DNA of 64,000 nt from Paucibacter sediminis (GCF_030254645.1 NZ_CP116346.1:2419973-2483972), one strand, 5' to 3'. Positions 20,835 through 34,747 are shown, counted from the first letter of the stretch. Made by a program: numbers and translations. Notes: generated by a model not told the origin, from the letters alone.

Positions 20835-21071
20835 AAACAGCAAGCGAACTTAACTGGGAGCTAGCGATTTTTGGAACTGCCGGATTCACGTTGCTGTCGT
20901 GCCTGTTTTCCGTCTGCCTTGCCATTCAAGCGCGCGGAGTGGGGAGTCAGAACCATGTGGTCTAACCGGTCGGTCAAGGGGACACACAACGGCGGTCCTG
21001 GCCTGTCCGCCTATGCTAGCGCCGTGCCGCCGTCGCGTGCCACTTACCTCCAACGTTAAAGCGCCAGCCAC

Positions 21072-21614: not shown

Positions 21615-21694
21615 GCCGCTTTAACCATTTGCTCGATCCGACTCGCGTCGGCCAGCCGCCGCTCGCGGCTCAGCGTCACCGTTGAACAGCGGCA

Positions 21695-22048: not shown

Positions 22049-22124
22049 AACGCTTCTGTTCAACCCTGCGCCCAAGCGGACCTGCGCCAGCTATGCTGGC
22101 TGGTCCGCTTAGCTAGATCGTTGA

Positions 22125-22536: not shown

Positions 22537-22545
22537 TCAACGTTC

Positions 22546-22565
22546 GAGCTGAGCTGAGCTGAGCT
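22546..22565. repeat. (GAGCT)x4 tandem microsatellite
   Basis: gagctgagctgagctgagct directly follows the right inverted repeat. Confidence 0.7.
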
Positions 22566-22607
22566 GCGCGCGGAGGATTGCCGACGCGATTCGGCTCGAG
22601 CGAGGGG

Positions 22608-23255
22608 TTAGGCAGCGTTCGGCGAGCTTGCAACATGACCAGGAGCGGTCTCCAAACCTTGTGTCATCCGACCTGCGTCTCGGATCAGGCGCTCCGCCGC
22701 AAGCTCCAGGAAGAAGAAGCCGAATCTAGGGTTCTGGTAGTACATCTGCCGGACCTCGTCGTAGGTGAGGAGCAGGAGCTGGCCGTCTTGGTCGCATACA
22801 ACGGTCTGCGTTCGCTTGTGCCCTTTCGTGATCAGCCCAAGCTCGCCGATAACTTCACCTTGCTTCAACACGATATCAGCCTCTACGGCGCGAAACCTTC
22901 CGCTGAGCACGAACATAAACTCCGCGGCCTCGTCGCCCTGCTTGAAGAGAGTCTCCCCGGCGTGAACGGCCTTGCGGCGCGAGAACGGTCTGAGCCAGTC
23001 CATGGACAGGTGCCCCGTGGAGGCCTCCTCAATCTGACGGGTCAGTTGCAGCAGCTGCCGCAGGCGCCAAAGGTTCAAGGGCAGCAGAGTCAAGTGCAGA
23101 AGCAGCACTGGGTAGACGCTGCCCATCGCACCATAGGTGACAAACGCTAGATTGGAGACAATTCCAGCCATGCGTAGGTGCAACATTGTCTTCATTGAGA
23201 AGGTCGTCAGCGTCAGCAGTGCGCCCAGATAGCCAAACATCTCCACCCATTGCAT
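22608..23255 (-). CDS. Membrane-anchored cyclic-nucleotide-binding (CAP_ED/cNMP) domain protein
   Basis: Start ATG 23255 with GGAGGGG RBS. Three N-terminal TM helices, then a cNMP-binding fold (FKQGDEAAEFMFVLSGRFRAV...GEVIGELGLITKGHKRTQTVVC). GC ~58% versus ~68% in the flanks. Confidence 0.7.
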   Translation of the reverse strand: MQWVEMFGYLGALLTLTTFSMKTMLHLRMAGIVSNLAFVTYGAMGSVYPVLLLHLTLLPLNLWRLRQLLQLTRQIEEASTGHLSMDWLRPFSRRKAVHAGETLFKQGDEAAEFMFVLSGRFRAVEADIVLKQGEVIGELGLITKGHKRTQTVVCDQDGQLLLLTYDEVRQMYYQNPRFGFFFLELAAERLIRDAGRMTQGLETAPGHVASSPNAA

Positions 23256-23516
23256 GTCCGCCCCTCCATGAGCACTGAAGGCCCTTGGGGGCCTGGAGGA
23301 ATACATTGTGCTCTGTGACAGACGGCCCCCAAGTTCTGTGAGAGCTAACGTTGACGCTGAGCAGCGCGCGGCGCCTGCCGGCGCTTCAACATTCGGGCGC
23401 CCATCCGAGCATGCAGCTTGCCACCCCAGCAAGGAAGGCCATGCAAATGCTGATAGCTTAAGCGGCGAGATGCGTCTATCCGTTGATCTGGAGTCGGCCG
23501 CAAAAGTGGCCGATTT

Positions 23517-23567
23517 GTTGTTTACGACTTTGGGTTGGCGGTGAGGCTGACTGCCTCCCCGTAAAGT
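23517..23567. repeat. Direct repeat copy 2
   Basis: Same 25-bp core as 20467-20491 plus a degenerate extension. Confidence 0.8.
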
Positions 23568-23759
23568 GCGTAAACACGGGCTGAGCATTTATGCAGGCTG
23601 GCGACCGAAATCCGATTTGCGGTGACGTCCAGGTCCCCGCCGTCGGCGTTCAACGCCTGAATTGGTGATTGCTCCAGTGGTTCCCGGTTGAATAGCTGTT
23701 CAGTTTGGTCAGCCGGTACCACCGAATGTGGGGCCACCGGTTGTCAACGTGACATCGTG

Positions 23760-26393
23760 TCAGGAGTCCGACGTACACGGCGCTTCTGCAGAGCCGAGAC
23801 AGAAGCGGTCCCGTCCTCCTGCCTTGGCGGCGTACAACAAGTCGTCCGCCCGTTTGCTGAGGTCGCGCGGCGTCAGCCCAGGCTCGCCGCGATAAAGCAC
23901 CACGCCGATGCTGGTGCTGACGTGGACGGACCGGTTCTCCAGCACAAACGGCGTGCGCATCGCCTCAACGATATTGCCTGCAATGGTGACGGCATCGGCC
24001 GGCGCGGACAGTTGCTCGACGATGACGGCGAACTCGTCGCCGCCGGGGCGGGCCACGATGTCGGCGCCGCGCAGGCTGCGCGACAGCCGGCCGGCGAAGC
24101 CGCGCAGCAGCAGGTCGCCGGCCAGGTGCCCCAGGCTGTCGTTCACCTGCTTGAAGCCGTCCAGGTCCAGCAGCAGCAGGGCCATCGTGCCGCCCACGCT
24201 TTGGCAGCGCTGCACGGCCTCATACGCGCGCTGCTCGAAGCCGGCACGGTTCAGGAGGCCGGTGAGGCTGTCGGACTGGCTCAGCTCGATCAGTCGGCGC
24301 TCCTCCTGCTTCTGCGCGGTGGTGTCCAGAATCATCGCCACAAAGCCCAGCACCTCGCGGCCGTCGTCGGCGAACTGGGGCAGGTAGCTGGCGCGGTAGC
24401 AGCGGTAGCCTTCGCGCGTGGTGATCTCGCTGTCGAAACTCACGGTCTCGCCGGCCAGCGCGCGTCGGATGTGCGGTGCGGCCTCGCCGTACGCGCCCGC
24501 GCCAATCACCTCGCGGACGGTGAGGCCCAGCAGCTCGTGGCGCGGCCGGCCAAAGGCGCGCTCGTAGGCCAGGTTGATGAAGCGATAGCGCTCGTCCGCG
24601 TCGACATAGGACACGCGCATGGGCAGTTGATCGGTGATGCTGCGCAGGCGCTGCTCGCTCTGACGCAACGCCTGTTCGGCACGGCGGCGCGGCGTGATAT
24701 CGCTGGCCAGGGCGTAGAAGCCGTCCACCGCACCGGCGGCGTCGCGCCTGGGTACCAAGGCGACGTGGATCCAGCGCTCCTCGGCCCGTCCCTGGATGTG
24801 GCGCTCGTAGCTCGCGGCTTCGCCGCGCAGTGCGGCTTCCATGGCCGGCCGCACCTCGGCCCAGGCCGCCTCGCCCAGCACCGAGGCCACGGTCTGCCCG
24901 AGCACGGCCTCCGGCGCGATGCCCAGCCAGTCCTGGTAGGTGCGGTTGGCAAAGCGGTAGCGGAATTCGCGGTCGTGATCGGCGATCAGCGCGGGCGCGC
25001 TGTCGGTGATGGCGCGCAGGCGCTCCTCGCTGGCCGCCAACCTGGCCTGGGCCTCGCGGCCCTCGGTCACGTCGCGCAGCAGCAGCTGCGACAACTGGCG
25101 GCCGCGCGCATCTCGGTAGCGTGCGGTCTGGACCTCCACCTCGAGGCGCCGGCCATCGCTGCGGCATAGCGTCAGCAGGCGCGGCTGGCCCGCCGGCTGT
25201 TGCAGGCATTCGGCAAGCGATGTGCCATTGCCATTGGGCAGTTGCGTGAGCGCCAAGCCAGGCGTGCCTGGCGGCTCTTTCGGCGCCAGCTCCAGCATCA
25301 GCCGCGCCATCGGGTTGAGCGCGGTCAGCCGGCCTTCCGGATCGACCACCACAATGCCTTCGCTGGCATGCTGGAACTGCGCCTGTTGCTGACGCTGGCT
25401 GGCCAGCAGCTCGGCCGCCAGGCCGCAGATCAGCACGCCGGTGCAGACCTGGGCGGTGACATAGCTCCACAGGGCCAGCAGCCCGGCGTGGGTGTCGTGT
25501 CCGGCAAACGGGCCGATGCCGCTGGCGGTGCCCCAGGCGGCCGTGCCCGACAGCAGCAACACCGCCAGCGAGGCCGCTAGCACGCCGGCACGCAGCGCCA
25601 GCACGGCCATCAGGAACAGCGGCAGGGCCAGCAAGGGAAAGGTCAAGGCCGTCGCGGGCGCCGTCCAGGGCGAGAAGGTCAGCAGCCCGCAGGCCAGCAC
25701 CAGGCCCAGCAAGGCCATGTTGAAGCGGCCGCGCCGGCCGGCAAAGCTGGTGCGCATGCTGGCGCGGGACATGGCGACCAGCGGAATACCGCCCAGCAGG
25801 GCCCCGACCGCATCGCCGGTCCACCAGGTGAGCCAGGCGGGCGCCCATTGGCCGGCCGACAGGAAGCCCGCCAAACGCAGCCAGACGCAGCCATTGCTGG
25901 CGGTGACCAGCATGCCCAGCGCCACGGCCAGCAGGTAATGTCCCAGGTCGGCGCGGCGCGTGAGTGCCGCGTCAAAGCCCAAGCGGCCGAGCAGTTTGGC
26001 GCTTAGCCAAGGGCCCAGCGCATTGCCCGCCGCGATACCGAGCGCCGCCCAGGCGGGCGTGCCGATCTGGTAATTGATCAGAAAGGCGGCCAGCAGCATG
26101 GTCGGCGCCATCGAGGTGCCCCAACGCAGATAAGCAGCCAGTGCGATACCGGTGGGCAGCCAGATCAGCGAGACATGCGATCCGATGTAGGGAATCAGCA
26201 GGCCCAAGCGCGCTGCCAGGTAGTAGGCGAGCGCGGCCGCGCCCATGCGCGCGAACTGGTGCGGGCCTGATGCCTGTGACGGCGCTTCGTATGGGGTGCT
26301 CGAGTACACGGCCAGCCCAGGCAATGGCACTGCGTTGGCACCAAACTGCTCCCATGACATCCTTGGCCTGATGGGTAACCGGCCGGACTCCAT
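23760..26393 (-). CDS. Sensor diguanylate cyclase: MASE1 - PAS - PAS - GGDEF
   Basis: Seven-TM MASE1-like N-terminus, two PAS/PAC regions, C-terminal GGDEF (GGDEFAVIV) and no EAL. The start is ambiguous: TTG 26726, ATG ~26393 (MESGRL) or ATG ~26360 (MSWEQF). Confidence 0.8.
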   Translation of the reverse strand: MESGRLPIRPRMSWEQFGANAVPLPGLAVYSSTPYEAPSQASGPHQFARMGAAALAYYLAARLGLLIPYIGSHVSLIWLPTGIALAAYLRWGTSMAPTMLLAAFLINYQIGTPAWAALGIAAGNALGPWLSAKLLGRLGFDAALTRRADLGHYLLAVALGMLVTASNGCVWLRLAGFLSAGQWAPAWLTWWTGDAVGALLGGIPLVAMSRASMRTSFAGRRGRFNMALLGLVLACGLLTFSPWTAPATALTFPLLALPLFLMAVLALRAGVLAASLAVLLLSGTAAWGTASGIGPFAGHDTHAGLLALWSYVTAQVCTGVLICGLAAELLASQRQQQAQFQHASEGIVVVDPEGRLTALNPMARLMLELAPKEPPGTPGLALTQLPNGNGTSLAECLQQPAGQPRLLTLCRSDGRRLEVEVQTARYRDARGRQLSQLLLRDVTEGREAQARLAASEERLRAITDSAPALIADHDREFRYRFANRTYQDWLGIAPEAVLGQTVASVLGEAAWAEVRPAMEAALRGEAASYERHIQGRAEERWIHVALVPRRDAAGAVDGFYALASDITPRRRAEQALRQSEQRLRSITDQLPMRVSYVDADERYRFINLAYERAFGRPRHELLGLTVREVIGAGAYGEAAPHIRRALAGETVSFDSEITTREGYRCYRASYLPQFADDGREVLGFVAMILDTTAQKQEERRLIELSQSDSLTGLLNRAGFEQRAYEAVQRCQSVGGTMALLLLDLDGFKQVNDSLGHLAGDLLLRGFAGRLSRSLRGADIVARPGGDEFAVIVEQLSAPADAVTIAGNIVEAMRTPFVLENRSVHVSTSIGVVLYRGEPGLTPRDLSKRADDLLYAAKAGGRDRFCLGSAEAPCTSDS

Positions 26394-27045: not shown

Positions 27046-27235
27046 TGCCCGAGCCGGCTGCACACGCGCCCTAGCGAAAGCAGCGGACGCGCGCCGGTGA
27101 TCGCAGGATTGACGCTTTCCAACTCCGGTGCGCAGAATCAAAAAGAGAGCCCTCGGGTGAAGACTCTCGTCCGCATCGGTGGCGCGCCGATCCTGCGCTC
27201 TGTCCAACCATACGGCGCGAAGAGAGGTTTATCCT

Positions 27236-27880
27236 ATGTCTCCGACCAGGTTTCTTGGACTCAGGCCGCTCATCGTGGCCGCGATCACCGCGCTGGGTAC
27301 GACGAGTGCGCACGCGCTGATCTTGTGTGTGGATTCGGGCGGCAACCTGTCCGCCGGAACGACGTGCAAGAAGGGTTGGACGCCTCTGGATCCGGTTGCT
27401 ACGGGCCTTCAGGGGCCGATGGGTCCACAGGGTCCGCAAGGTCCGCAGGGGCCACAAGGGTTGACAGGGCCTCAAGGCAACGTCGGGCCCATGGGGCCGC
27501 AAGGTAGTCGGGGCCCCAGTGATGTCTACGCCGTCGACGGGGTATTCGCGCCGGATCTGCTGAACGACGTCATCACCAATGTCGTTTCCATCAACCTTCC
27601 CCCTGGAAGTTACCTCGTTGTCGGGCGCGTGATGGTGGAGAACGACGATGTTCAAAGCAGGGCGACATGGTGCCGCCTCAGCGAGCCAAGCTTCACCCTG
27701 GACAACGCCGGACCGGAATACCAGCGAACGCTGCCGGCGGGGACGATGGACAACATCAGCCTTCAGCACACGCTGGTTTTCTCGTCGGCAAGCACAGTGA
27801 CGATGCAATGCAAGTCCTATAACGCGAGAGTGTTCTTTCCCCGTCTCGCGGCCATTCAGGTGGGGGCCGTTCACAAGTAG
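27236..27880 (+). CDS. Collagen-like triple-helix repeat protein with C-terminal globular domain
   Basis: AGAGG RBS and a signal peptide. 13 consecutive G-X-Y triplets (GLQGPMGPQGPQGPQGPQGLTGPQGNVGPMGPQGSRGPS), then a ~120-aa beta-rich domain (BclA / phage-fibre-like architecture). Confidence 0.6.
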   Translation: MSPTRFLGLRPLIVAAITALGTTSAHALILCVDSGGNLSAGTTCKKGWTPLDPVATGLQGPMGPQGPQGPQGPQGLTGPQGNVGPMGPQGSRGPSDVYAVDGVFAPDLLNDVITNVVSINLPPGSYLVVGRVMVENDDVQSRATWCRLSEPSFTLDNAGPEYQRTLPAGTMDNISLQHTLVFSSASTVTMQCKSYNARVFFPRLAAIQVGAVHK

Positions 27881-28509: not shown

Positions 28510-28988
28510 GTGAGCTCCAGTGACTGCCCGAATTCCGATCAGACCTCGCGACAGCGAGCTTGGCAATCCTAAGACCACGCTTGCAGCGCTCATCGGGGCT
28601 GTCTGCAGGCGTGCGCTGGGCCAGCGTTCAAGGGTTGCGGATTTGATCGGGCGCGCGGCGTACATGACGAGCGACGGTATTTGGACTTCCATGTCCACGC
28701 AGCCCAGGCGCTCACAGACCTGGACCAGGCCGAGCTGTCTGTCACTGATGCCAGCGCCAAACTGTTCGGCACGATCCGCCTCGCTGCGCCGATCGTGCTT
28801 AGTCCATAGGCAGATCTAGCGCGGGCCGCCTAATGCTCCCGTTCTTTACGAAGTTACCGTAGGAGAGCGGCGGAGTGCTCCTGGGCTTCAGCGATCTCAA
28901 CCCGGGCGAGGCCGTCATCGTCGATTTCCTGCCACTGCCGCCGGACGCTCGCCACAGCACAGGGCACTTCGAGCGAGGCGTCGAAGGG

Positions 28989-29354
28989 TTACTGGTGGAA
29001 CGTCTTCAGCAATTGCTTCAAGCGTTTTCGTCCGTCGCTATTCGTCTCGCGAAACGTCTTCAGCGCCAGTGCCAGGAACTGCTGTTCTCCTGGTGACAGA
29101 CCCGTTGGCTCGCGCTCTTCGTCCAGCCACCCGGGCTCCTTGCTGCAATGCTGCTCGATCTGTCGAGCCAGCTTGTCGCCGATCGGCCGAGCGCCGCTCT
29201 TGGCCATGGACCAGGTGGCGCTACTCACCTCGATCTTGCTTGCCCAGGCCGACTCAAGTCCCTTGGGTGGGTCGCCGGCGGCGATGCGTTCTTCCGCAAA
29301 AGTCTGGAAGAGCGCAATGGCGTTGAGTCGGCGAAATGTAGAGATGCTGGACAC
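28989..29354 (-). CDS. Hypothetical protein, possible HTH regulator
   Basis: 121 aa. Helix-turn-helix-like segment KIEVSSATWSMAKSGARPIGDKLARQIE. Lower GC. No family assigned. Confidence 0.35.
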   Translation of the reverse strand: MSSISTFRRLNAIALFQTFAEERIAAGDPPKGLESAWASKIEVSSATWSMAKSGARPIGDKLARQIEQHCSKEPGWLDEEREPTGLSPGEQQFLALALKTFRETNSDGRKRLKQLLKTFHQ

Positions 29355-29876
29355 GGCGTGTGTTGTTAAAACACTTCACATGCATTCTAGGGGATCGAAG
29401 GAGTTGACGGGGCCGTGAACACTCTTCACAATTCATCCATTCGTTAATTCACCCCAACCCGCCAGGTCTCATCATGCTTCGCACAGCCTACGTCACCAAC
29501 GCCAAGCGCCCCCTTTCGGGTGAGATGGCTGTGTGCTTCGCTGCGGCTCGCCATGAGATTGCGCTGGCACTGAGCCAGCCGCGCCAAGACCGATACGAAG
29601 GTGAATCAATGCTACCGGGGAAGGCTCCAGCCCGCTGAAGCTTTCGTACTCCAGGGATCCGTCGATCCCATGAAGCCCGGTCTCCTGCAGGAACCGGGCT
29701 TTTTGTTTGGCTCCTGCGAATCGGATTGATGCCATCTCGGGTGTGCCCGTGCACAAGCACCGGCCGGCCCGGTGCGCATGTGTGCCCAAGCACGTTCTGC
29801 AGACGGAGCCGGCATGCAGCGGTCAAGACAAGCCTTGCTTGCCTGGGTCGCGTGCGGACACAGCCGAGATGCCATC

Positions 29877-29953
29877 GCCTCGTTAGCTCAGTGGATCAGA
29901 GCGTCGGCCTACGAAGCCGGAGGCCGGAGGTTCGACTCCTTCACGAGGCACCA
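29877..29953 (+). tRNA. tRNA-Arg (anticodon ACG)
   Basis: Clean cloverleaf: acceptor GCCTCGT/ACGAGGC, D-arm GCTC..GAGC, anticodon loop CTACGAA, T-arm GGAGG-TTCGACT-CCTTC, CCA encoded. Confidence 0.85.
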
Positions 29954-29965
29954 GTTTTCATTTCT

Positions 29966-30040
29966 GTCCCGTTGGACTTCCGGTGAGGTCCTCGGCCCTT
30001 CAAGCCGAAGAGGCGGGTTCGACTCCCGCACGGGATACCA
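29966..30040 (+). tRNA. Aberrant tRNA-like gene (anticodon position reads TTC, C33 instead of U33, selC-like D-loop TCCGGTGAGG)
   Basis: Folds with a 7-bp acceptor (one G.U pair), T-arm GCGGG-TTCGACT-CCCGC and CCA, but the anticodon loop CCTTCAA is non-canonical. Possible pseudo-tRNA. Confidence 0.4.
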
Positions 30041-30142
30041 GATCAAAAGCCTGTCGTCGAGCTCGCGCTTCGACAGGCGCAAACCGGCCGCAACGATTGG
30101 GCGGCGTCGGAACCCGTCACCGACAGCTATAGCGAGCAAGAC

Positions 30143-30218
30143 CCGTGTGTAGCGCAACTGGTAGCGCATCTGCTTTGGGAGCAGGCGGTTGCAGGTTCAA
30201 GTCCTGCCGCACGGACCA
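30143..30218 (+). tRNA. tRNA-Pro (anticodon TGG)
   Basis: Acceptor CCGTGTG/CGCACGG (one G.U), D-arm GCGC-AACTGGTA-GCGC, anticodon loop TTTGGGA, T-arm GCAGG-TTCAAGT-CCTGC, CCA. Confidence 0.85.
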
Positions 30219-30228
30219 GGAGAAACAT

Positions 30229-30304
30229 GTCGCCATAGCTCAGTTGGAAGAGCAGCGGGTTTTGATCCCGCAGGTCGCAGGTTCGAACCCTGCCGCCCCT
30301 GCCA
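30229..30304 (+). pseudogene. Chimeric tRNA-Gln(TTG)-like sequence with non-pairing 5' acceptor strand
   Basis: Anticodon arm GCGGG-TTTTGAT-CCCGC, T-arm and 3' CGCCCCT-G-CCA match betaproteobacterial tRNA-Gln. The 5' strand GTCGCCA cannot pair with CGCCCCT, and the D-arm is of the Thr/Ala type. Confidence 0.45.
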
Positions 30305-30344
30305 GAACACATGAATCGTGCCCAGTCACAGAAAGGAGGACGCC

Positions 30345-30905
30345 ATGCACGACGTATTGCAGCTGGACATCATCGGCCAGCCTCAGGCCTGGATCTCGAT
30401 CAAGCAGGCGGCCGTCCATGTGGCTACGCGCTCGGTCGCCTGGTCGATCGGAGAACTGCCACTGGCTGTGCTGCGTGGTGGAACGAACGTTCGCAGCGGC
30501 CAGCAGTCGATCCTCGAGGTACCGGCCATCCTGGCTCTCAGCGGCAACTCGCGTCTGAATCTGTTCGACATGACGCCAAGCTTCAACAAGGCCAAGGTGA
30601 TCCGGCGCGACCGCCAGACCTGCGCCTACTGCGGCGATGCGCATGATGTGCGCTGCCTCACGGTCGACCACATCCTGCCGGCATCGCGTGGCGGGCCGCT
30701 CAGCTGGATGAACACGGTCGCTGCCTGCCGCGCCTGCAATGCGCGCAAGGCCGACCGCACGCCCGAGGAAGCCGGGATGCCGCTGCTGTTCACGCCCTAC
30801 GTGCCCAGCCGTTTCGAGGACTTCCTGCTCAAGGGCAGGCGGATCCGCGCGGACGTGCACGAGTGGCTGGCCGCGCGGCTACCGAAAGAATCGCGTCTGA
30901 GCTGA
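30345..30905 (+). CDS. HNH endonuclease
   Basis: AAGGAGGA RBS. Motif CAYCG...LTVDHILPASRGG...ACRACNARK (C-x2-C ... H ... H ... N ... C-x2-C). 186 aa. Embedded in the tRNA array. Confidence 0.8.
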   Translation: MHDVLQLDIIGQPQAWISIKQAAVHVATRSVAWSIGELPLAVLRGGTNVRSGQQSILEVPAILALSGNSRLNLFDMTPSFNKAKVIRRDRQTCAYCGDAHDVRCLTVDHILPASRGGPLSWMNTVAACRACNARKADRTPEEAGMPLLFTPYVPSRFEDFLLKGRRIRADVHEWLAARLPKESRLS

Positions 30906-31037
30906 CCCACCCGGTCGGCCCAGACGCCCACAGATCTGCCTTGGAAGGTAGGGCTCACAGCTTGGGGGTTCCACCCCACCGGTGCGTTGTGGCCGGGCTC
31001 GTCCCGTCGCTATGACGCATGCCGCCCTGCTGAAAGG

Positions 31038-31101
31038 GGCCGATACGGTGAAACACGGTTGTCCTGCAAGGGTTCGGGTTCGACTCCCGGGTTCGCCACC
31101 A
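31038..31101 (+). other. tRNA-like 3' fragment (acceptor-like stem GGCCGAT/GTTCGCC + T-arm TCGGG-TTCGACT-CCCGG + ACCA), no D/anticodon arms
   Basis: Ends ...GGGTTCGCCACCA. Only ~27 nt lie between the 5' acceptor-like strand and the T-arm. Its CCA abuts or overlaps the start of the downstream tRNA-Thr-like gene. Confidence 0.4.
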
Positions 31102-31173
31102 CTGGATAGCTCAGTCGGGTAGAGCAACGGATTCGTAATCCGTGTGTCGTGGGTTCGACGCCCACTCCACCAA
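31100..31173 (+). tRNA. tRNA-Thr (anticodon CGT)-like, first three acceptor pairs disrupted, no encoded CCA
   Basis: D-arm GCTC-AGTCGGGTA-GAGC, anticodon loop TTCGTAA, T-arm GTGGG-TTCGACG-CCCAC. The 3' acceptor TCCACCA needs a 5' TGGTGGA, but CACTGGA is found (positions 1-3 mismatched). Likely truncated or pseudo. Confidence 0.45.
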
Positions 31174-31432
31174 TGGCCTGTCACGCCAGTGAAAGAAGCG
31201 GTCGCAAGACCAACCCGCCGAACGTGCCGGCCTGCCCTCGGGTAAACCGGCATCAGCGCGGCCACCCGTGCTTCGGGCACGCGGGGCCTGCGTCCACGGC
31301 CAGTTCGAAGTGTGTCCAGGGAGGGCATGCCGACGACGCGCCGCGGCACCCAGTCCCAGGCATCCGGGGTCCGTGGCCGTGCTGTAACGGCACCCCTATT
31401 CAAACAACACGCTGCAAAACAAGGAGAACCTC

Positions 31433-32569
31433 ATGATGATCAAGCGTGTCACTGTGAAGAAGAACGAGCGCGGCCTGCTGCTGCGCAATGGTGATTTCGA
31501 GCGCGTGCTGCAACCCGGCACGCACTGGCTGTTCGCCGGCCTGGACCAGCTTCAGGTCGAGCTGTTTGCCATTGGAGCGCCGGCCTTCGTGCACCCTCTG
31601 ACCGATTACCTGCTGGCCAAGGAGCCGGCGGTGGTCGAGGCCGAGTTCGTGCGCGTCGAGTTGAACGCCAACCAGGTTGGCCTGCGTAGCGAGAACGGCG
31701 TGCTGGTTGAGCTGCTGCCGCCCGACACGCGGCGCCTGTACTGGAAGGGTCTGGTGGATGTGCGGGTCGAGGTGATCGACCTAGCGAGCTCCATCGAGCT
31801 GTCCCCGGCGCTCACCGCTCGGCTGCTGCAGACCCAGTTACGCCCACGGAGCATCACCGGCCTGGCCGGCGCGCTGCAAGTGGTCGTGCCGGAGCACGGC
31901 GCCGGCCTGCTGTGGGTCGACGGCAAGGTCGAGCGGCTGCTTGGCGCTGGCTCGTTCGCGTTCTGGAAGTTCAACCGCAACGTGAGCGTGGATCTGGTGG
32001 ACCTGCGGCTGCAGGCTGTCGAGGTGACGGGGCAGGAAATCCTGACCCGCGACAAGGTGGCTCTGCGGCTCAACCTCTCGGCCACCTGGCGCTACTCGGA
32101 CGTGCTGAGCGCCTACAAGGCCTTGGCCAAGCCGGCCGAGCATCTGTACCGTGAGCTGCAGTTCGGTCTGCGCGCGGCGGTGGGCACGCGCTCGCTCGAT
32201 GAGCTGCTCGAAAACAAGGGCGTCATTGACGAGGTGGTGACCGCCCAGGTCAAGGCCAAGCTCGCGGCGCTCGGGCTCGAGCTGACCAGCGTCGGCGTGA
32301 AGGACATCGTGCTGCCGGGCGAGATGAAGACCATCCTTGCCCAGGTGGTGGAGGCCGGGAAGTCGGCCGAAGCCAACGTGATCCGCCGCCGCGAGGAAAC
32401 CGCCGCGACCCGTTCGCTGCTGAACACCGCCAAGGTGATGGAGGACAACCCCGTCGCCCTGCGCCTCAAGGAGCTGGAAACCCTGGAGCGCGTGGCGGAG
32501 CGCATCGACAAGATCTCCGTCTTCGGAGGTCTGGACCAGGTGCTCAATGGGCTGGTGAAGCTGCGTTGA
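31433..32569 (+). CDS. SPFH/band-7 (slipin/HflC-like) domain protein
   Basis: AAGGAGA RBS. 378 aa with a recognisable SPFH domain (...ILTRDKVALRLNLSATWRY...LQFGLRAAVGTRSLDELLENK...) and a C-terminal coiled-coil. Confidence 0.75.
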   Translation: MMIKRVTVKKNERGLLLRNGDFERVLQPGTHWLFAGLDQLQVELFAIGAPAFVHPLTDYLLAKEPAVVEAEFVRVELNANQVGLRSENGVLVELLPPDTRRLYWKGLVDVRVEVIDLASSIELSPALTARLLQTQLRPRSITGLAGALQVVVPEHGAGLLWVDGKVERLLGAGSFAFWKFNRNVSVDLVDLRLQAVEVTGQEILTRDKVALRLNLSATWRYSDVLSAYKALAKPAEHLYRELQFGLRAAVGTRSLDELLENKGVIDEVVTAQVKAKLAALGLELTSVGVKDIVLPGEMKTILAQVVEAGKSAEANVIRRREETAATRSLLNTAKVMEDNPVALRLKELETLERVAERIDKISVFGGLDQVLNGLVKLR

Positions 32570-32633
32570 GTGCCGCCCCGGCCTGGCTCAATTTGAATCT
32601 CGCCCGGCTGGGGCTCTACATTGGAACAACATC

Positions 32634-33851
32634 ATGGAAGCTCAACACATTCACGAAGACGTCCCAGGCGGTGTGCCGCTGAAGATGTGGACGCGTGGCG
32701 TGCCCGTCGAGTCCGAGGCCAAGCGCCAGCTCACCAACGCGGCGCGCCTGCCCATCGTCTTCAAGCACATCGCCGCGATGCCTGACGTGCACTTCGGCAT
32801 CGGTGCCACGGTGGGCTCGGTCATCCCGACCATCAAGGCCATCATTCCGGCGGCCGTGGGCGTGGACATCGGCTGCGGCATGATCGCCTGCAAGACCACG
32901 CTGCGCGCCGAAGACCTGCCCGACAACCTCGCCCCGCTGCGCGCAGCCATTGAGCGCGCAGTGCCGCATGGCCGCGTGCCCGGCAACCGTGACCCGGGCG
33001 CCTGGCAAAAGCCGCCGGGCTCGGTGGATACGGCCTGGGCGCAGCTCGAGCCCGAGTTCGCTGAGCTTTGCCGCAACTACCCCAAGCTGGAAAAGACCAA
33101 CCATCACAAGCACCTGGGAACGCTCGGTGGCGGCAACCACTTCATCGAGGTCTGCCTGGACGAAGCTGGCGCGGTCTGGTTCATGCTGCATTCGGGCTCG
33201 CGCGGCGTGGGCAATGCCATCGGCACGATGTTCATCGAACTGGCCAAGCAGGACGCGATGCGCCATCAGGCCAACCTGCCTGACCGCGACCTGGCCTACT
33301 TCGAGGAAGGCAGCCGCTACTTTGGCGACTATGTCCGTGCCGTGAGCTGGGCTCAGAAGTACGCCGCTATGAACCGTGAGGTCATGATGCGCCGCGTCAT
33401 CGAGGCTGCAAAGACGGTCCTGCACAAGAACTTCCAGAGCCACATCGAGGCGGTGAACTGCCACCACAACTATGTGCAGCGCGAGCAGCACTTCGGCGAG
33501 GACGTGTTCGTGACCCGCAAGGGTGCGGTGAGCGCCAAGGCAGGCCAGCTGGGCATCATCCCGGGCAGCATGGGCGCGCGCAGCTACATCGTGCGCGGCA
33601 AGGGCAACCCGGAGTCCTTCGAGTCCTGCTCACATGGCGCGGGCCGCGTCATGAGCCGTGGCGATGCCAAGCGCAGCTTCACGCTAGCCGACCACCGCGC
33701 GGCCACGGAAGGCGTCGAGTGCCGCAAGGACAAGGACGTGCTGGATGAAACGCCCGCGGCTTACAAGGACATCGATGCCGTCATGGCCGCGCAGGCGAAC
33801 CTGGTCGACGTGGTGCATACGTTGAAGCAGGTGGTTTGTGTGAAGGGTTGA
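32634..33851 (+). CDS. rtcB: RNA-splicing ligase RtcB (3'-phosphate/5'-OH RNA ligase)
   Basis: 405 aa with hallmark motifs GGGNHFIEV, HSGSRGVGN, and C-terminal SHGAGRVMSR containing the guanylylated His. Confidence 0.9.
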   Translation: MEAQHIHEDVPGGVPLKMWTRGVPVESEAKRQLTNAARLPIVFKHIAAMPDVHFGIGATVGSVIPTIKAIIPAAVGVDIGCGMIACKTTLRAEDLPDNLAPLRAAIERAVPHGRVPGNRDPGAWQKPPGSVDTAWAQLEPEFAELCRNYPKLEKTNHHKHLGTLGGGNHFIEVCLDEAGAVWFMLHSGSRGVGNAIGTMFIELAKQDAMRHQANLPDRDLAYFEEGSRYFGDYVRAVSWAQKYAAMNREVMMRRVIEAAKTVLHKNFQSHIEAVNCHHNYVQREQHFGEDVFVTRKGAVSAKAGQLGIIPGSMGARSYIVRGKGNPESFESCSHGAGRVMSRGDAKRSFTLADHRAATEGVECRKDKDVLDETPAAYKDIDAVMAAQANLVDVVHTLKQVVCVKG

Positions 33852-33982
33852 GCCGCAGGGCTGCTCGGATGTTGTCTCCCGGCTTGACCATGGCGCCGCG
33901 CGAGGTCTCGAACACTTTCGGGAACGCAACCCCCGGATTCCGCATCCAATGGGCAACACTCGCAAACTCCGGTGAACGCACC

Positions 33983-34747
33983 ATGCCAGCCAAGCTCGCC
34001 ATACCCGCCATTAGCCACGCCCAAGCGCATCCCGCCAGTCAGGCGGATGGCGAACTCGCGCGCCTTGCCGCGGGCGGGGACGAGGCCGCCTTCGAGGCCT
34101 TGATGCGGCGCCACAACCGGCGCCTGTTCCGCACCGCGCGCAGCATCGTGAAGTGCGACGAGGAAGCCGAGGACGCGTTGCAGGAGGCCTATCTGCGGGC
34201 CTGGTCCGCCTTGCCCGGCTTCCGTGCCGAGGCGCAGTTGTCCACCTGGCTGGTGCGCATCGTGGCCAACGAAGCCCTGGGGCGGCTGCGCAAGCGTGCC
34301 CGCGGCGCACAGGTGATTGCCTTGGAGGGTCTGGCCATGCCGTCCGACGATGAGTCCGCTGCGTCGACGACGCTCGAAGCGCTGATGAGCGATCCTGCCG
34401 CGCAGGAGCAGCCCGAGCGGCTGGCGATGCGCGGGCAGATGCGCCAGCTCATCGAGGCGCGCATCGATCAGCTGCCCGCCCTGTTCCGCACGGTGTTCGT
34501 GCTTCGCGCCGTCGAGGAGATGAGCGTGGAGGAGGTGGCCCTGGCGCTGCAGTTGCCGGCCGCCACGGTGCGCACCCGCTTCTTCCGCGCCCGCGCCCTG
34601 CTGCGCGAAGCGCTCTCGCAGGACATGGACGTCGCAACCGGCGACGCCTTCTCCTTCGACGGCGCGCGCTGCGACCGCATCGTCGCCGCGGTGCTGTCAC
34701 GCCTGGCCGCGCAAGCCAGCGCCAGCCCCGCGGCCTCGGACCCCTAG
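33983..34747 (+). CDS. RNA polymerase ECF sigma factor (sigma-70 family, group 4) with ~60-aa C-terminal extension
   Basis: Region 2 (EEAEDALQEAYLRAW...TWLVRIVANEA) and region 4 (LPALFRTVFVLRAVEEMSVEEVALALQLPAATVRTRFFRAR). Confidence 0.75.
   Translation: MPAKLAIPAISHAQAHPASQADGELARLAAGGDEAAFEALMRRHNRRLFRTARSIVKCDEEAEDALQEAYLRAWSALPGFRAEAQLSTWLVRIVANEALGRLRKRARGAQVIALEGLAMPSDDESAASTTLEALMSDPAAQEQPERLAMRGQMRQLIEARIDQLPALFRTVFVLRAVEEMSVEEVALALQLPAATVRTRFFRARALLREALSQDMDVATGDAFSFDGARCDRIVAAVLSRLAAQASASPAASDP

What the first reader, a model, noticed from the sequence alone, without database searches (positions are those of the whole stretch)
29877..34747. Aberrant tRNA array + HNH endonuclease + tRNA-fragment junction immediately upstream of an SPFH(band-7)-RtcB pair and an ECF sigma factor: candidate RNA-damage/repair or conflict island
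Within 5 kb the sequence shows two intact tRNAs (Arg-ACG, Pro-TGG) interleaved with three defective tRNA-like genes. One has a TTC anticodon position with C33 and a selC-like D-loop. One is a tRNA-Gln chimera whose 5' acceptor strand cannot pair. One is a tRNA-Thr(CGT)-like gene whose first three acceptor pairs are replaced. An HNH endonuclease is embedded between them. A 64-nt element with only an acceptor-like stem plus T-arm plus ACCA sits against the tRNA-Thr-like gene. Directly downstream is a two-gene module: an SPFH/band-7 protein followed by a canonical RtcB RNA ligase. No rtcA, rtcR or Rsr gene is visible, and an ECF sigma factor follows. Established knowledge: RtcB reseals tRNAs and rRNAs cut by ribotoxins, and Rtc operons are normally rtcR-controlled and sigma-54-dependent. 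Tying it to an SPFH membrane scaffold and defective tRNA decoys, with ECF-sigma control, is not a described arrangement to my knowledge. The pseudo-tRNAs could be decoys or mimics (cf. Y-RNA tRNA-like modules next to rtcB in other bacteria), integration scars, or a degraded phage tRNA array.
Basis: partly seen in the sequence, partly recalled or inferred. Interest (0 to 1): 0.7.

Follow-up and report, generated by a model that had tools for sequence, protein, structure and literature searches.

The report
tRNA array joined to RtcB repair operon
This stretch joins a shrunken, horizontally spread spare-tRNA array (with its usual HNH nuclease) to an already predicted RNA-repair operon, in which a large structured RNA carrying two tRNA mimics precedes a stomatin-like protein and the RtcB RNA ligase; the parts are known, but the fusion and the full size of the RNA have not been described as far as I could check.

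Summary
ARAGORN and Rfam confirm two ordinary tRNAs, three aberrant tRNA-like elements, an HNH gene, an SPFH gene and a canonical RtcB.

The claim that this is undescribed is wrong. SPFH/Band-7 + RtcB + a tRNA-like RNA ("b7a-tRNA") was predicted by Burroughs & Aravind in 2016. Long tRNA arrays with an HNH gene, linked or co-regulated with rtcB and a slipin, are described in cyanobacteria.

The three "defective" tRNAs have three different explanations.
- **Glu-like tRNA with C33:** a conserved array variant with compensatory stem changes.
- **"Gln chimera":** a window-specific tRNA-Asp/tRNA-Gln deletion hybrid.
- **"Thr-like" gene plus the 64-nt element:** two tRNA mimics inside a roughly 490-nt structured RNA. 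77 of 120 pairs show compensatory changes, and it lies upstream of SPFH in about 80 Burkholderiales loci.

The ECF sigma factor is an unrelated neighbour.

What appears new:
- the size and architecture of the RNA, which is absent from Rfam;
- recurrent non-U33 anticodon loops in array tRNAs;
- an operon variant in which the array, HNH and a repressor-like gene replace RtcR and its sigma-54 promoter.

Function is inferred, not shown.

The parts
28989..29354 (-). Small repressor-like ORF (121 aa), divergent from the array; candidate regulator of the locus
   Evidence: An orthologue sits in 30 related loci at the same place, just upstream of the tRNA array on the opposite strand. PHROG 'transcriptional repressor' matches residues 44-84, E 2e-6. 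No Pfam or NCBIfam hit.
29404..29432 (+). Sigma-70-like promoter TTGACG-17-CACAAT with two copies of AACAC(T/TC)TTCACA, one of them over the -10 box; candidate operator-controlled promoter
   Evidence: It is the only promoter-like site on the + strand in 28900-34000. The motifs are invariant in 6 loci (A2). Function is inferred.
29474..29709 (+). Leader: 54-aa ORF (29474-29638, no family) followed by a hairpin GCCCGGT..ACCGGGC and a T-tract (29675-29709), terminator-like
   Evidence: The hairpin and T-tract are conserved in A2. The ORF has no Pfam hit. A role as an attenuator is speculation.
29731..29873 (+). About 140-nt stable stem-loop element closed by CCAUCUCGG/CCGAGAUGG, directly 5' of tRNA-Arg
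   Evidence: MFE -78.9 kcal/mol, z -3.6. Conserved in 6 loci. No Rfam match.
29877..29953 (+). tRNA-Arg(ACG), intact, CCA encoded
   Evidence: ARAGORN; Rfam 67.4 bits.
29966..30040 (+). tRNA-Glu(UUC)-like with C33 (loop CCUUCAA); a conserved array variant, not a decayed gene
   Evidence: ARAGORN; Rfam 47.8 bits, full length. 12 of the 21 array tRNA-Glu(TTC) genes have the CCUUCAA (C33) loop. Within this lineage 10 loci have C33 and 2 have G33, with compensatory changes at 2:71, in the anticodon stem and in the T stem.
30041..30142 (+). About 100-nt spacer between tRNA-Glu and tRNA-Pro, nearly invariant among related arrays
   Evidence: A2 alignment. The fold is not unusual, z -1.05. Role unknown.
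30143..30218 (+). tRNA-Pro(UGG), intact, CCA encoded
   Evidence: ARAGORN; Rfam 66 bits.
30229..30304 (+). Hybrid pseudo-tRNA: the 5' acceptor strand and D-arm of tRNA-Asp(GUC) fused to the anticodon arm, T-arm and 3' end of tRNA-Gln(UUG). It is a deletion between the homologous D-arms.
   Evidence: Bases 1-8 match L004 tRNA-Asp 7/8 against tRNA-Gln 1/8. Bases 28-76 match tRNA-Gln 43/49 against tRNA-Asp 31/49. L004 has both genes intact, about 280 nt apart. Rfam gives a partial match only, model positions 8-63.
30345..30905 (+). HNH endonuclease (186 aa), the hallmark companion of long tRNA arrays
   Evidence: Pfam HNH_5/HNH. Found at the same position in 42 related loci at 63-88% identity. 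Median dN/dS 0.33. Homologues lie next to 24-29-tRNA arrays on Methylibium, Nostoc and Mycolicibacterium plasmids.
30928..31046 (+). Structured RNA, domain 1: nested helices with the invariant core ..CCGGUG..[hairpin]..CAUGCCGC
   Evidence: fold_alignment and the count of structure pairs. Covariance model R1 scores 96.9 bits here and 52.6 bits (E 2.5e-10) in Burkholderia cenocepacia. nhmmer finds it upstream of SPFH in 77 places.
31047..31101 (+).
   Evidence: The acceptor stem pairs perfectly in 40 of 64 loci and has one mismatch in 19, across 48 distinct stem versions. In a permuted control 10.6% pair perfectly. T-arm pairs covary.
31100..31173 (+).
   Evidence: ARAGORN assigns a different anticodon in almost every locus. 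In RtcR-type loci a GNRA tetraloop replaces the loop in 20 of 21 cases. Rfam tRNA 48.6 bits. Named b7a-tRNA in the literature.
31200..31211 (+). Structured RNA: invariant GGUC-GMAA-GACC hairpin
   Evidence: All four pairs are invariant in 28 sequences.
31217..31391 (+). Structured RNA, domain 3: long-range closing helix GCCG/CGGC enclosing about 170 nt of covarying helices, ending in CUGUAACGGCACC
   Evidence: Helices 15-23, most with changes on both sides. nhmmer finds it upstream of SPFH in 81 places.
31433..32569 (+). SPFH/Band-7 (stomatin-type 'slipin') protein, 378 aa, no transmembrane segment, with an extra beta-rich N-terminal region of about 150 aa
   Evidence: Pfam Band_7 103 bits. 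PDB stomatin matches residues 173-375, E 1e-16. Maximum 19-residue hydropathy 1.31. 74-94% identical in the 80 fetched Burkholderiales loci.
32634..33851 (+). RtcB RNA ligase (3'-P/2',3'-cyclic-P + 5'-OH), 405 aa, catalytic motifs intact
   Evidence: Pfam RtcB 428.7 bits. Alignment to T. thermophilus RtcB keeps the metal-binding and GMP-histidine motifs. It follows SPFH in 61 loci.

Best explanation
In Paucibacter and its relatives they are fused into what looks like one repressor-controlled transcription unit.

**Module 1: a reduced long tRNA array.** It is the horizontally spread kind and comes with its characteristic HNH endonuclease and a divergent small repressor-like gene. In this genome it has shrunk to tRNA-Arg, a variant tRNA-Glu with C33, tRNA-Pro and a dead Asp/Gln deletion hybrid.

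**Module 2: the Band-7 (SPFH)/RtcB RNA-repair operon.**
- Its first roughly 490 nt are not a tRNA gene plus a fragment. They form one large, strongly covarying structured RNA.
- That RNA contains two tRNA mimics in tandem. One is a minihelix-like mimic ending in an invariant CCA. The other is the previously predicted 'band 7-associated tRNA', whose anticodon is unconstrained.
- In sister lineages the same RNA-SPFH-RtcB(-RlaP-RtcA) unit is driven by RtcR and a sigma-54 promoter. Here the array, HNH and the repressor have taken that place.

**Most likely mode of action (inferred, not shown).**
1. Translational or tRNA damage derepresses the promoter at about 29.4 kb.
2. The array supplies spare tRNAs. 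Some have altered anticodon loops that may escape anticodon nucleases.
3. RtcB reseals cut tRNA or rRNA.
4. The soluble stomatin-like protein and the structured RNA form a ribonucleoprotein cofactor or scaffold for RtcB, analogous to Ro/Y RNA in the rsr-yrlBA-rtcBA operon.

The ECF sigma factor downstream is an unrelated neighbour.
For: **Shown here**
- Identity of all parts.
- The module [0-18 tRNAs]-HNH-RNA-SPFH-(x)-RtcB recurs in about 42 of 80 Burkholderiales loci, with HNH at a fixed distance from SPFH.
- All three blocks of the RNA lie upstream of SPFH in essentially all 80 loci, including the 27 with rtcR.
- In the rtcR loci aligned, a sigma-54 promoter TGGCACGCATCTGGCA sits directly 5' of RNA domain 1.
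- RNA structure:
  - 94.5% of cells are paired, against 82.3% in shuffles.
  - 77 of 120 pairs change on both sides, against 44.8 +/- 3 in shuffles (0 of 500 reach it) and 29-40 in slid controls.
  - The covariation score is 0.388, against 0.06-0.07.
- The acceptor stem of mimic A covaries in 48 versions.
- The mimic B anticodon differs from locus to locus, or is replaced by a GNRA tetraloop.
- The HNH family sits beside 24-29-tRNA arrays in Methylibium, Nostoc and Mycolicibacterium plasmids that lack SPFH/RtcB.
- HNH is under purifying selection, dN/dS 0.33.
- Glu-C33, Gly-C33 and His-C33 variants recur with compensatory stem changes.
- The Asp/Gln hybrid is confirmed.
- L038 shows an intermediate layout: array-HNH-rtcR-RNA-SPFH...RtcB-RlaP-RtcA.

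**From the literature**
- b7a-tRNA/Band-7/RtcB was predicted earlier (10.1101/312249).
- Cyanobacterial long arrays carry a conserved HNH gene and linked, co-regulated rtcB (PMC8421152).
- The Anabaena TrcR regulon holds the trn array, rtcB, two HNH genes and a slipin (PMC10272220).
- Anticodon-loop changes in phage tRNAs are proposed to evade anticodon nucleases (PMC10264068).
Against: - No expression, processing or binding data exist. The b7a RNA has never been validated experimentally.
- A single transcription unit is inferred from one consensus promoter hit and from the lack of others. A terminator-like hairpin at 29675-29709 lies between that promoter and the array.
- The window's array is small and partly dead, so its contribution here may be marginal.
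- Whether C33 tRNAs are aminoacylated or decode is unknown. The counts of C33 variants are not independent, because the genes share descent.
- The link between anticodon-loop form and regulator type is confounded by phylogeny.
- HNH could be only a selfish homing nuclease.
- The SPFH structure model was poor (pLDDT 54), so nothing can be said about an RNA-binding surface.
- Beyond Burkholderiales, RNA domain 1 is statistically supported only in Burkholderia. It is weak in Photobacterium (10 bits, E 0.64) and not detected in E. coli or Subdoligranulum.
Confidence: 0.8

Rival explanations
1. The roughly 490-nt RNA is purely a cis-acting leader. It would work as a sensor or attenuator of SPFH-rtcB expression. 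For example, ribotoxins might cut its tRNA mimics, or a tRNA-processing or modification enzyme might bind them, changing translation or stability of the downstream mRNA. On this reading it is not a trans-acting RNP partner.
For: - It lies between the promoter and the SPFH start codon in both architectures, with no clear terminator before the Shine-Dalgarno sequence.
- Loci without RtcR mostly keep a 7-nt anticodon-like loop (YU-NNN-RA), whereas RtcR loci cap that arm with a tetraloop. This fits a sensing role being needed where RtcR is absent.
Against: - RtcR loci already have a dedicated sensor yet keep the whole RNA.
- The invariant CCA at the end of mimic A, and its perfect minihelix geometry, look like processing and end-recognition signals for a released RNA.
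- The analogous YrlA/YrlB RNAs are stable trans-acting RNAs cut from the operon transcript (literature).
- The loop-versus-regulator correlation may reflect only one or two evolutionary events.
Confidence: 0.3
2. The array tRNAs, including Glu-C33, are nuclease-resistant spares or decoys. The locus would then be a chromosomal counter-measure against tRNA-cleaving toxins (colicin-like, CDI, VapC/PrrC-like or phage-triggered), with RtcB repairing what is still cut.
For: - Non-U33 loops recur in particular isoacceptors: Glu 14/21, Gly-GCC 8/9, His 6/19 and Lys-CUU 2/5. Arg, Leu, Pro, Gln, Asn, Trp, Met and Phe all keep U33.
- Stems in these genes show compensatory changes.
- Sporadic non-U33 tRNAs also occur in the Methylibium, Nostoc and Mycolicibacterium arrays.
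- There is published precedent for anticodon-loop changes in phage tRNAs and a proposed 'sponge' role for array tRNAs.
Against: - No cognate nuclease is identified.
- The effect of C33 on cleavage or on decoding is untested.
- The variants descend from a few ancestors, so the counts overstate independence.
- The window keeps only three usable tRNAs.
Confidence: 0.3
3. Prophage or integrative-element debris: a decayed phage tRNA block with a homing HNH and tRNA-fragment integration scars, lying next to rtcB by chance.
For: - The Asp/Gln hybrid is a real scar.
- G+C is lower at 26-34 kb (61-65%) than the roughly 70% of the flanks.
- The HNH family occurs in jumbo phages and on plasmids.
- Array content is highly variable, from 0 to 18 genes.
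Against: - No integrase, terminase or structural genes lie within about 10 kb.
- No SPFH relative is found in IMG/VR.
- HNH keeps a fixed position and an intact reading frame in 42 loci, with dN/dS 0.33.
- The 'fragment junction' is a covarying RNA conserved in 80 loci.
Confidence: 0.1
4. The ECF sigma factor downstream controls the SPFH-RtcB pair.
For: The gene starts close to, and may overlap, the RtcB stop codon in this window.
Against: A homologue of the sigma gene is not found next to the module in any of the 80 related loci. The one weak hit, in L039, is 28% identical and far upstream. Other loci carry different downstream genes.
Confidence: 0.03

Closest known systems
[quoted passage not shown] The paper is not held; it is cited in bioRxiv 10.1101/312249, and its abstract is recalled from memory.
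   Same: - RtcB lies immediately after a Band-7 protein, preceded by a tRNA-like non-coding RNA.
- The proposed scaffold/cofactor role is analogous to Ro/Y RNA.
- Sister loci carry RtcR, RlaP and RtcA.
   Different: - No RtcR, sigma-54 promoter, RtcA or RlaP is present here.
- The tRNA-like gene is only about 70 nt of a roughly 490-nt covarying RNA that holds a second mimic with an invariant CCA and two further domains. I could not check whether the 2016 paper describes these.
- The RNA is absent from Rfam 15.
[quoted passage not shown]
   Same: - Same-strand tRNA array with an adjacent HNH gene of the same family (35% identity to the Nostoc plasmid copies).
- Patchy distribution.
- Linkage or co-regulation with rtcB and a slipin.
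- A nearby repressor-like gene and repeats over the -10 box.
   Different: - Here all parts are physically contiguous, whereas in Anabaena they are dispersed.
- The window's array is reduced to three usable genes.
- The regulator's family is not established to be TrcR-like.
- The host is a betaproteobacterium.
rsr-yrlBA-rtcBA operon (Ro60 orthologue + Y RNA-like YrlA/YrlB + RtcB/RtcA) of Salmonella
   Same: - A structured RNA with a tRNA-like module is encoded between the promoter and rtcB, beside a putative RNA-binding scaffold protein.
- There is a weak YrlA covariance-model match across the junction of the two mimics (29 bits).
   Different: - No Rsr/TROVE gene is present.
- The YrlA match is far below the gathering score (69 bits).
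- The tRNA mimics are linear and tandem, not a closed permuted mimic.
Phage tRNA clusters with embedded homing endonucleases (T4 segB, T5 HNH genes) and anticodon-loop-variant phage tRNAs (PMC10264068)
   Same: - An HNH gene lies inside or beside a tRNA cluster.
- Some tRNAs have anticodon-loop variants.
- The same element may carry an RNA ligase.
   Different: - The context is chromosomal, with no phage genes nearby.
- HNH is conserved at one position across genera.
- The locus is coupled to SPFH and a large structured RNA.

Membership tests
Band-7/RtcB/b7a-tRNA RNA-repair system | RtcB-family ligase with intact catalytic motifs | tested here: met
   Pfam RtcB 428.7 bits. Motifs are aligned to solved RtcB structures.
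Band-7/RtcB/b7a-tRNA RNA-repair system | SPFH/Band-7 protein gene immediately upstream of rtcB | tested here: met
   Band_7 103 bits. The adjacency is conserved in 61 loci and also in Burkholderia, Photobacterium and Subdoligranulum.
Band-7/RtcB/b7a-tRNA RNA-repair system | tRNA-like non-coding RNA upstream of the Band-7 gene | tested here: met
   ARAGORN and Rfam in the window. ARAGORN finds a tRNA-like element about 240-330 nt upstream of SPFH in most HNH-type loci, with no conserved anticodon, and nhmmer finds it upstream of SPFH in nearly all 80 loci.
Band-7/RtcB/b7a-tRNA RNA-repair system | RtcR (CARF + sigma-54 activator) and a sigma-54 promoter controlling the operon | tested here: not met
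   No RtcR homologue is in the window, and no GG-N10-GC promoter lies upstream. Both are present in 27 sister loci. This feature is common but, to my knowledge, not obligatory for the family.
Band-7/RtcB/b7a-tRNA RNA-repair system | The RNA is expressed and associates with the Band-7 protein or RtcB | not testable with these tools
   No expression data are available. The literature states that it has not been validated.
Long tRNA array (L-array) with HNH | Many (about 10-43) same-strand tRNA genes at close spacing | tested here: not met
   The window has three intact tRNAs and one hybrid. Orthologous loci have up to 18. The window copy is best called a remnant.
Long tRNA array (L-array) with HNH | Adjacent HNH endonuclease of the array-associated family | tested here: met
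   tblastn finds homologues, including the N-terminal region, next to arrays of 27, 24 and 29 tRNAs in Methylibium, Nostoc and Mycolicibacterium plasmids.
Long tRNA array (L-array) with HNH | Supernumerary to the housekeeping tRNA set; horizontally acquired | tested here: inconclusive
   Array content varies from 0 to 18 genes among close relatives, and G+C is lower here. The rest of the genome is not available to test redundancy.
Long tRNA array (L-array) with HNH | Repressed, and induced by translational stress | not testable with these tools
   Only a divergent repressor-like ORF and operator-like repeats over the -10 box are seen.
Rsr/Y RNA (YrlA) module | Match to the YrlA covariance model at or above the gathering score, and an adjacent Rsr (TROVE) gene | tested here: not met
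   YrlA scores 29 bits against a gathering score of 69. No TROVE domain is found among the neighbouring ORFs scanned.
Prophage tRNA block | Integrase or phage structural and replication genes flanking the tRNAs | tested here: not met
   Pfam on ORFs from 19 to 38 kb shows metabolic and signalling genes only. No SPFH relative is in IMG/VR.
tRNA-Sec (selC)-like | 8/5 acceptor/T-stem geometry, 6-bp D-stem, long variable arm, UCA anticodon | tested here: not met
   The element at 29966-30040 has 7/5 geometry, a 4-bp D-stem, a 4-nt variable region and a UUC anticodon. The best clan member is tRNA, and ARAGORN calls it Glu.

The most novel reading that the evidence does not exclude
The roughly 490-nt RNA is a new class of large structured bacterial non-coding RNA. 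It has two tandem tRNA mimics, one ending in an obligatory CCA, flanked by two covarying domains. With a soluble stomatin-like cage protein it would form a Ro/Y-RNA-like or vault-like particle that presents damaged tRNAs or rRNA to RtcB.

In the lineage of this window the particle has been wired to a repressor-controlled set of spare tRNAs with altered anticodon loops. The locus would then be a self-contained 'replace and repair' immunity island against tRNA-cleaving toxins.
Probability: 0.25. Interest if true: 0.8.

Novelty: new variant of a known kind. Interest (0 to 1): 0.5.

Why it matters
Bacterial RtcB still lacks well-defined substrates and cofactors. The Band-7/b7a branch of RNA repair has existed only as a 2016 computational prediction.

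- **The RNA is bigger than predicted.** The predicted tRNA-like gene is part of a much larger, strongly covarying RNA, which gives experimenters a defined RNA and a defined protein partner to test.
- **Two literatures are joined.** In a whole group of Burkholderiales the operon is physically fused to a long-tRNA-array/HNH element in place of RtcR. This links work on cryptic tRNA arrays induced by translational stress with work on Rtc RNA repair, and argues that spare tRNAs and tRNA ligation act in one response.
- **There is a concrete test.** The recurrent non-U33 anticodon loops offer a direct test of the idea that array tRNAs are nuclease-resistant.

If none of this holds, the locus is an ordinary, partly decayed member of known families.

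Tried and rejected
1. **Phage origin via RtcB.** RtcB is about 70% identical at the DNA level to RtcB of Caulobacter and Brevundimonas jumbo phages. Those phage loci have no SPFH, HNH or tRNA-like RNA nearby, so this only reflects RtcB conservation.
2. **Sigma-54 promoter in the window.** None was found. The conserved ACGGCACC at the 3' end of the RNA resembles a -24 box and pairs with TTGC in Acidovorax. The real sigma-54 promoter in RtcR loci lies 5' of the RNA.
3. **Structure prediction of the SPFH protein.** The alignment was shallow (all sequences 83-94% identical to the query) and gave pLDDT 54 and pTM 0.28. No fold search was run because matches would be meaningless.
4. **Reaching distant HNH and SPFH relatives through the big protein search.** The listed top 120 were all close Burkholderiales sequences. 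tblastn against plasmids and phages was more useful.
5. **Covariance model of RNA domain 1 on distant loci.** It was significant only in Burkholderia. It was weak in Photobacterium and absent in E. coli and Subdoligranulum, although related motifs are visible by eye.
6. **PADLOC.** Only the generic HNH core matches PtuB, PDC-M01B and Cas9 models. SPFH, RtcB and the regulator have no defence-system match.
7. **Reading Burroughs & Aravind 2016 directly.** The paper is not held.
8. **Protein-coding explanation for 30.9-31.4 kb.** Rejected. No ORF there passes the third-codon-position G+C filter used to pick likely genes, indels are not in multiples of three, and substitutions are compensatory.

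Full report
**1. Checking the observation**

The window comes from Paucibacter sediminis or a near-identical genome. Its SPFH protein is 100% identical to one from a 5.3-Mb contig of that species.

- **tRNAs.** ARAGORN finds exactly four tRNA genes in the 64 kb, all in the flagged segment: Arg(ACG) 29877-29953, Glu(TTC) 29966-30040, Pro(TGG) 30143-30218 and Thr(CGT) 31100-31173.
- **Rfam scores.** Arg and Pro score 67.4 and 66 bits over the full tRNA model. Glu scores 47.8 bits. The Thr-like element scores 48.6 bits over model positions 4-67 only. A fifth partial match at 30236-30293 scores 46.9 bits over positions 8-63.
  - the Glu-like loop is CCUUCAA, with C33;
  - the first three acceptor pairs of the Thr-like element cannot form;
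  - the fifth element has a 5' strand that cannot pair with its 3' strand;
  - an acceptor-stem + T-arm + ACCA element ends at 31101, abutting the Thr-like element.
- **Proteins.** Pfam confirms HNH (30345-30905), Band_7 (31433-32569), RtcB (32634-33851, 428.7 bits) and an ECF-type sigma factor. RtcB keeps its catalytic motifs.
- **Absent genes.** No RtcR, RtcA or RlaP homologue is present in the window.

The Glu-like D-arm is not selC-like. The SPFH protein has no transmembrane segment (maximum 19-residue hydropathy 1.31); it is a soluble stomatin-type protein.

**2. Related loci**

A scan of one genome per species returned 80 Burkholderiales loci encoding a 74-94% identical SPFH protein. tblastn and ORF clustering show two architectures.

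- **Type A** (Acidovorax, Delftia, Hydrogenophaga, Simplicispira and others; 27 loci have rtcR): rtcR on the opposite strand, then a sigma-54 promoter, about 500 nt of non-coding sequence, SPFH, sometimes an unknown ORF, RtcB, the RlaP nucleotidyltransferase and RtcA.
- **Type B** (this window, Roseateles, Pelomonas, Aquabacterium, Rubrivivax, Piscinibacter, Caldimonas, Ramlibacter, Ideonella and others; about 42 loci): a small divergent ORF, 0-18 same-strand tRNA genes, the HNH gene at a fixed distance, the same roughly 500-nt non-coding sequence, SPFH, sometimes a second SPFH or an unknown ORF, then RtcB. There is no rtcR and no rtcA.
- **An intermediate.** One locus, L038 (Albitalea terrae), has an 18-tRNA array and HNH upstream of a complete type A unit.
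- **The sigma factor and the ferritin-like genes** that follow RtcB in the window are not found next to the module in any other locus.

**3. The 'tRNA-Thr-like gene' and the '64-nt element' are parts of one large structured RNA**

- **Conservation.** An alignment of 28 HNH-stop-to-SPFH-start regions is conserved throughout (A1).
- **Structure.** RNAalifold predicts 120 pairs, 77 of them with compensatory double changes.
- **Controls:**
  - 94.5% of cells are paired, against 82.3% in shuffles;
  - 77 pairs change on both sides, against 44.8 +/- 3 in shuffles (0 of 500 reach it) and 29-40 when partners are slid by 1-3 columns;
  - the covariation score is 0.388, against 0.06-0.07.
- **Distribution.** nhmmer profiles of three blocks of this alignment each find one strong match upstream of SPFH in essentially all 80 loci, type A included. 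The RNA therefore belongs to SPFH-RtcB, not to HNH or the array.
- **Transcription in type A.** In the type A loci aligned, the sigma-54 promoter (TGGCACGCATCTGGCA) lies directly 5' of the first block. The RNA is thus the 5' part of the RtcR-activated transcript.

In window coordinates the RNA consists of five parts.
1. **Domain 1, 30928-31046.** It has an invariant CCGGUG...CAUGCCGC core.
2. **tRNA mimic A, 31047-31101.** It has a 7-bp acceptor-like stem, a short GNRA-capped hairpin, a canonical T-arm, a discriminator and an invariant CCA.
3. **tRNA mimic B, 31100-31173.** Its D-arm and T-arm are invariant and its acceptor stem has only 4-6 pairs.
4. **An invariant GGUC-GMAA-GACC hairpin, 31200-31211.**
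5. **Domain 3, 31217-31391.** It is closed by a long-range GCCG/CGGC helix.

The acceptor stem of mimic A pairs perfectly in 40 of 64 loci and has one mismatch in 19, across 48 different sequence versions. A permuted control gives 10.6% perfect.

Mimic B has no conserved anticodon. ARAGORN calls it Ile, Thr, Glu, Val, Ser, Met, Phe, Lys, Ala, Gly, Cys, Asn or a 4-nt anticodon in different species. In type B the loop usually keeps the YU-NNN-RA form. In type A it is replaced by a GNRA tetraloop in 20 of 21 loci, though this contrast is confounded by phylogeny. Mimic B is therefore a structural tRNA mimic, not a decoder.

No Rfam 15 family matches the RNA apart from tRNA. There is a weak YrlA match across the A/B junction, at 29 bits against a gathering score of 69.

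**4. Distribution of the RNA beyond this group**

- SPFH-RtcB with an upstream tRNA-like RNA is also present in Burkholderia cenocepacia and in Photobacterium, which has two tandem tRNA-likes. Both loci have rtcR.
- SPFH-RtcB adjacency is present in the firmicute Subdoligranulum.
- An E. coli strain has a sigma-54-like promoter, a leader containing a T-arm, a slipin and RlaP, but no RtcB.
- A covariance model of domain 1 scores 52.6 bits (E 2.5e-10) in Burkholderia and only 10 bits (E 0.64, at the expected place) in Photobacterium. It finds nothing in E. coli or Subdoligranulum.

**5. What the literature already says**

- **b7a-tRNA.** Wang et al. (bioRxiv 10.1101/312249) summarise Burroughs & Aravind 2016. 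[quoted passage not shown] The authors propose that it is functionally analogous to YrlA, and it has not been validated experimentally. From memory, the 2016 abstract speaks of SPFH/Band-7 scaffolds with 'a novel tRNA-like molecule'. I could not read the paper. In the held library only that one preprint mentions b7a-tRNA.
- **P. aeruginosa.** An SPFH gene embedded in its rtc locus is noted in PMC13086221.
- **Long tRNA arrays.** Santamaria-Gomez et al. (PMC8421152) describe long, horizontally spread tRNA arrays with a conserved adjacent HNH gene and neighbourhood links to rtcB. All are induced by translational stress.
- **The TrcR regulon.** In Anabaena it contains the trn array, rtcB, two HNH genes and a slipin (PMC10272220).

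**6. The array and HNH**

- **HNH and long arrays.** By tblastn, the HNH protein (including its N-terminal region) has homologues in three places:
  - 70 nt after a 27-tRNA array on the Methylibium petroleiphilum megaplasmid (68% identity);
  - in front of a 24-tRNA array on Nostoc plasmids (35%);
  - inside a 29-tRNA array on a Mycolicibacterium plasmid (37%).

  None of these has SPFH/RtcB beside it. Homologues also occur in jumbo phages. HNH is thus the companion of long arrays.
- **Selection on HNH.** In type B loci it is intact in 42 genomes, even where the array has shrunk to 0-2 genes. It evolves under purifying selection: median dN/dS is 0.33, against 0.25 for SPFH and 0.17 for RtcB.
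- **Anticodon loops.** Array tRNAs show recurrent departures from the near-universal U33.
  - Of 21 Glu(UUC) genes, 12 have C33 and 2 have G33.
  - Of 9 Gly(GCC) genes, 8 have C33.
  - Of 19 His genes, 6 have C33.
  - Of 5 Lys(CUU) genes, 2 have C33.
  - All Arg, Leu, Pro, Gln, Asn, Trp, Met and Phe genes keep U33.
- **The window's Glu-like gene.** It belongs to a lineage shared by 12 loci in which position 33 is C or G but never U. Compensatory changes occur at pair 2:71, in the anticodon stem and in the T stem. It is a conserved variant rather than a decayed gene.
- **Other arrays.** Sporadic non-U33 tRNAs also occur in the Methylibium, Nostoc and Mycolicibacterium arrays.
- **Precedent.** Phage tRNAs with anticodon-loop changes have been proposed to escape anticodon nucleases (PMC10264068). 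Whether that applies here is untested.

**7. The 'Gln chimera'**

Aligned with the close relative L004, bases 1-8 of 30229-30304 match tRNA-Asp (7/8, against 1/8 for tRNA-Gln). Bases 28-76 match tRNA-Gln (43/49, against 31/49 for tRNA-Asp). The switch lies in the D-arm that the two genes share. In L004 both genes are intact and about 280 nt apart. The window element is thus a deletion hybrid, a pseudogene specific to this genome.

**8. Upstream control region**

The following features are conserved in six type B loci (A2).
- A divergent 121-aa ORF (28989-29354, minus strand), present in 30 loci. It matches a PHROG 'transcriptional repressor' family at E 2e-6.
- The only sigma-70-like promoter on the + strand of the region (29404-29432). 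It has two copies of AACAC(T/TC)TTCACA, one of them over the -10 box.
- A 54-aa ORF.
- A terminator-like hairpin with a T-tract (29675-29709).
- A stable roughly 140-nt stem-loop element (29731-29873, z -3.6).
- A nearly invariant 100-nt spacer between tRNA-Glu and tRNA-Pro.

This layout resembles the repressor-controlled promoters of the Anabaena system, but the regulator's family and the roles of the elements are not established.

**9. Interpretation**

- **Shown.** The identities of the parts, conservation of the two modules, the covarying RNA, the alternative regulatory front ends, and the origin of each 'defective' tRNA.
- **Inferred.** A single stress-derepressed transcription unit. Spare or resistant tRNAs from the array. 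RtcB resealing cut RNAs. The SPFH protein plus the structured RNA acting as an RNP cofactor in the manner of Ro/Y RNA. The tRNA mimics (a perfect minihelix with CCA) serving as processing signals or as RtcB/tRNA-enzyme docking sites.
- **Rivals.** A purely cis-acting leader, nuclease-resistant spares or decoys as the main point, prophage debris, and ECF-sigma control. The last two are poorly supported.

**10. Verdict**

The finding is real and carefully observed, but its headline novelty claim fails. Both halves belong to kinds already described computationally, and for cyanobacterial arrays experimentally.

What seems new:
- the full extent and architecture of the RNA;
- its tandem tRNA mimics with an invariant CCA;
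- the isoacceptor-specific non-U33 loops;
- the operon variant in which an array/HNH/repressor front end replaces RtcR.

I rate it a new variant of a known kind, of moderate interest, mainly because it makes an unvalidated RNA-repair RNP directly testable.

Noticed in passing
window 29355-29876: A conserved control region lies between the divergent repressor-like ORF and tRNA-Arg. It holds a sigma-70-like promoter with repeated AACAC(T/TC)TTCACA motifs, a 54-aa ORF with no family, a terminator-like hairpin + T-tract (29675-29709) and a stable roughly 140-nt stem-loop element (29731-29873, z -3.6). It could be an attenuator or a processing structure.
   Followed up: partly
window 30041-30142: The 100-nt spacer between tRNA-Glu and tRNA-Pro is nearly invariant across six related arrays, as conserved as the tRNAs themselves. 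Its predicted fold is not unusual (z -1.05).
   Followed up: partly
L038 (Albitalea terrae) 200-10500: An intermediate architecture: an 18-tRNA array, HNH, then rtcR on the opposite strand, a sigma-54 promoter, the structured RNA, SPFH, RtcB, RlaP and RtcA. It suggests the array/HNH element first landed beside a complete rtc locus, and that rtcR was lost later.
   Followed up: partly
L009, L014, L015, L024, L027 (second SPFH); L006, L026, L029, L055 and others (cluster 8); L012, L021, L037 (cluster 19): Many related loci carry an extra gene between SPFH and RtcB. It is either a second SPFH paralogue or one of two unknown proteins of about 247 and 275 aa with no Pfam or NCBIfam match.
   Followed up: partly
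L009, L010, L022, L023, L028, L041 (inside or beside the arrays): A roughly 386-aa PcfJ-like protein (Pfam PF14284, E 1e-13) is encoded within some arrays. In L004 and L037 a small ORF with a SEC-C-like CPCGS motif lies between tRNA-Asp and tRNA-Gln.
   Followed up: no
L087 (E. coli STEC639, CP061233.1 611-614 kb): Some E. coli carry a sigma-54-like promoter, a leader with a T-arm-like hairpin, a slipin 55% identical to the window's SPFH and an RlaP nucleotidyltransferase, but no RtcB. The locus lies between a DUF3811 gene and lysC.
   Followed up: partly
L089 (Photobacterium sp. GJ3) 5674-5815: Upstream of SPFH-RtcB there are two complete tRNA-like elements in tandem, sharing a boundary. This mirrors the mimic A/mimic B pair of the window but with a full cloverleaf in the first position.
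   Followed up: partly
window 20000-24000: This stretch has 58-59% G+C against about 70% around it, and no ORF with the genome's usual third-position G+C bias. Its only domain hit is a cNMP-binding ORF (22608-23588, minus strand). It is probably foreign DNA unrelated to the finding.
   Followed up: partly
window 27179-27880: An ORF with collagen triple-helix repeats (Pfam PF01391, E 3e-7) overlaps an equally long ORF on the opposite strand. Its coding status is uncertain.
   Followed up: no
window 30345-30905: The HNH core (residues about 80-155) also matches PADLOC models for PtuB and PDC-M01B, as well as Cas9/IscB HNH domains (E about 1e-8). This covers the core motif only, but PtuAB-type HNH effectors are reported to deplete tRNA, so an RNA-directed activity is worth testing.
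   Followed up: no
L091-L093 (IMG/VR proviral contigs): Three predicted proviruses begin exactly at a 64-65% identical HNH gene, with no tRNAs or SPFH downstream. The array/HNH junction may serve as a prophage boundary or integration site in some Burkholderiales.
   Followed up: no
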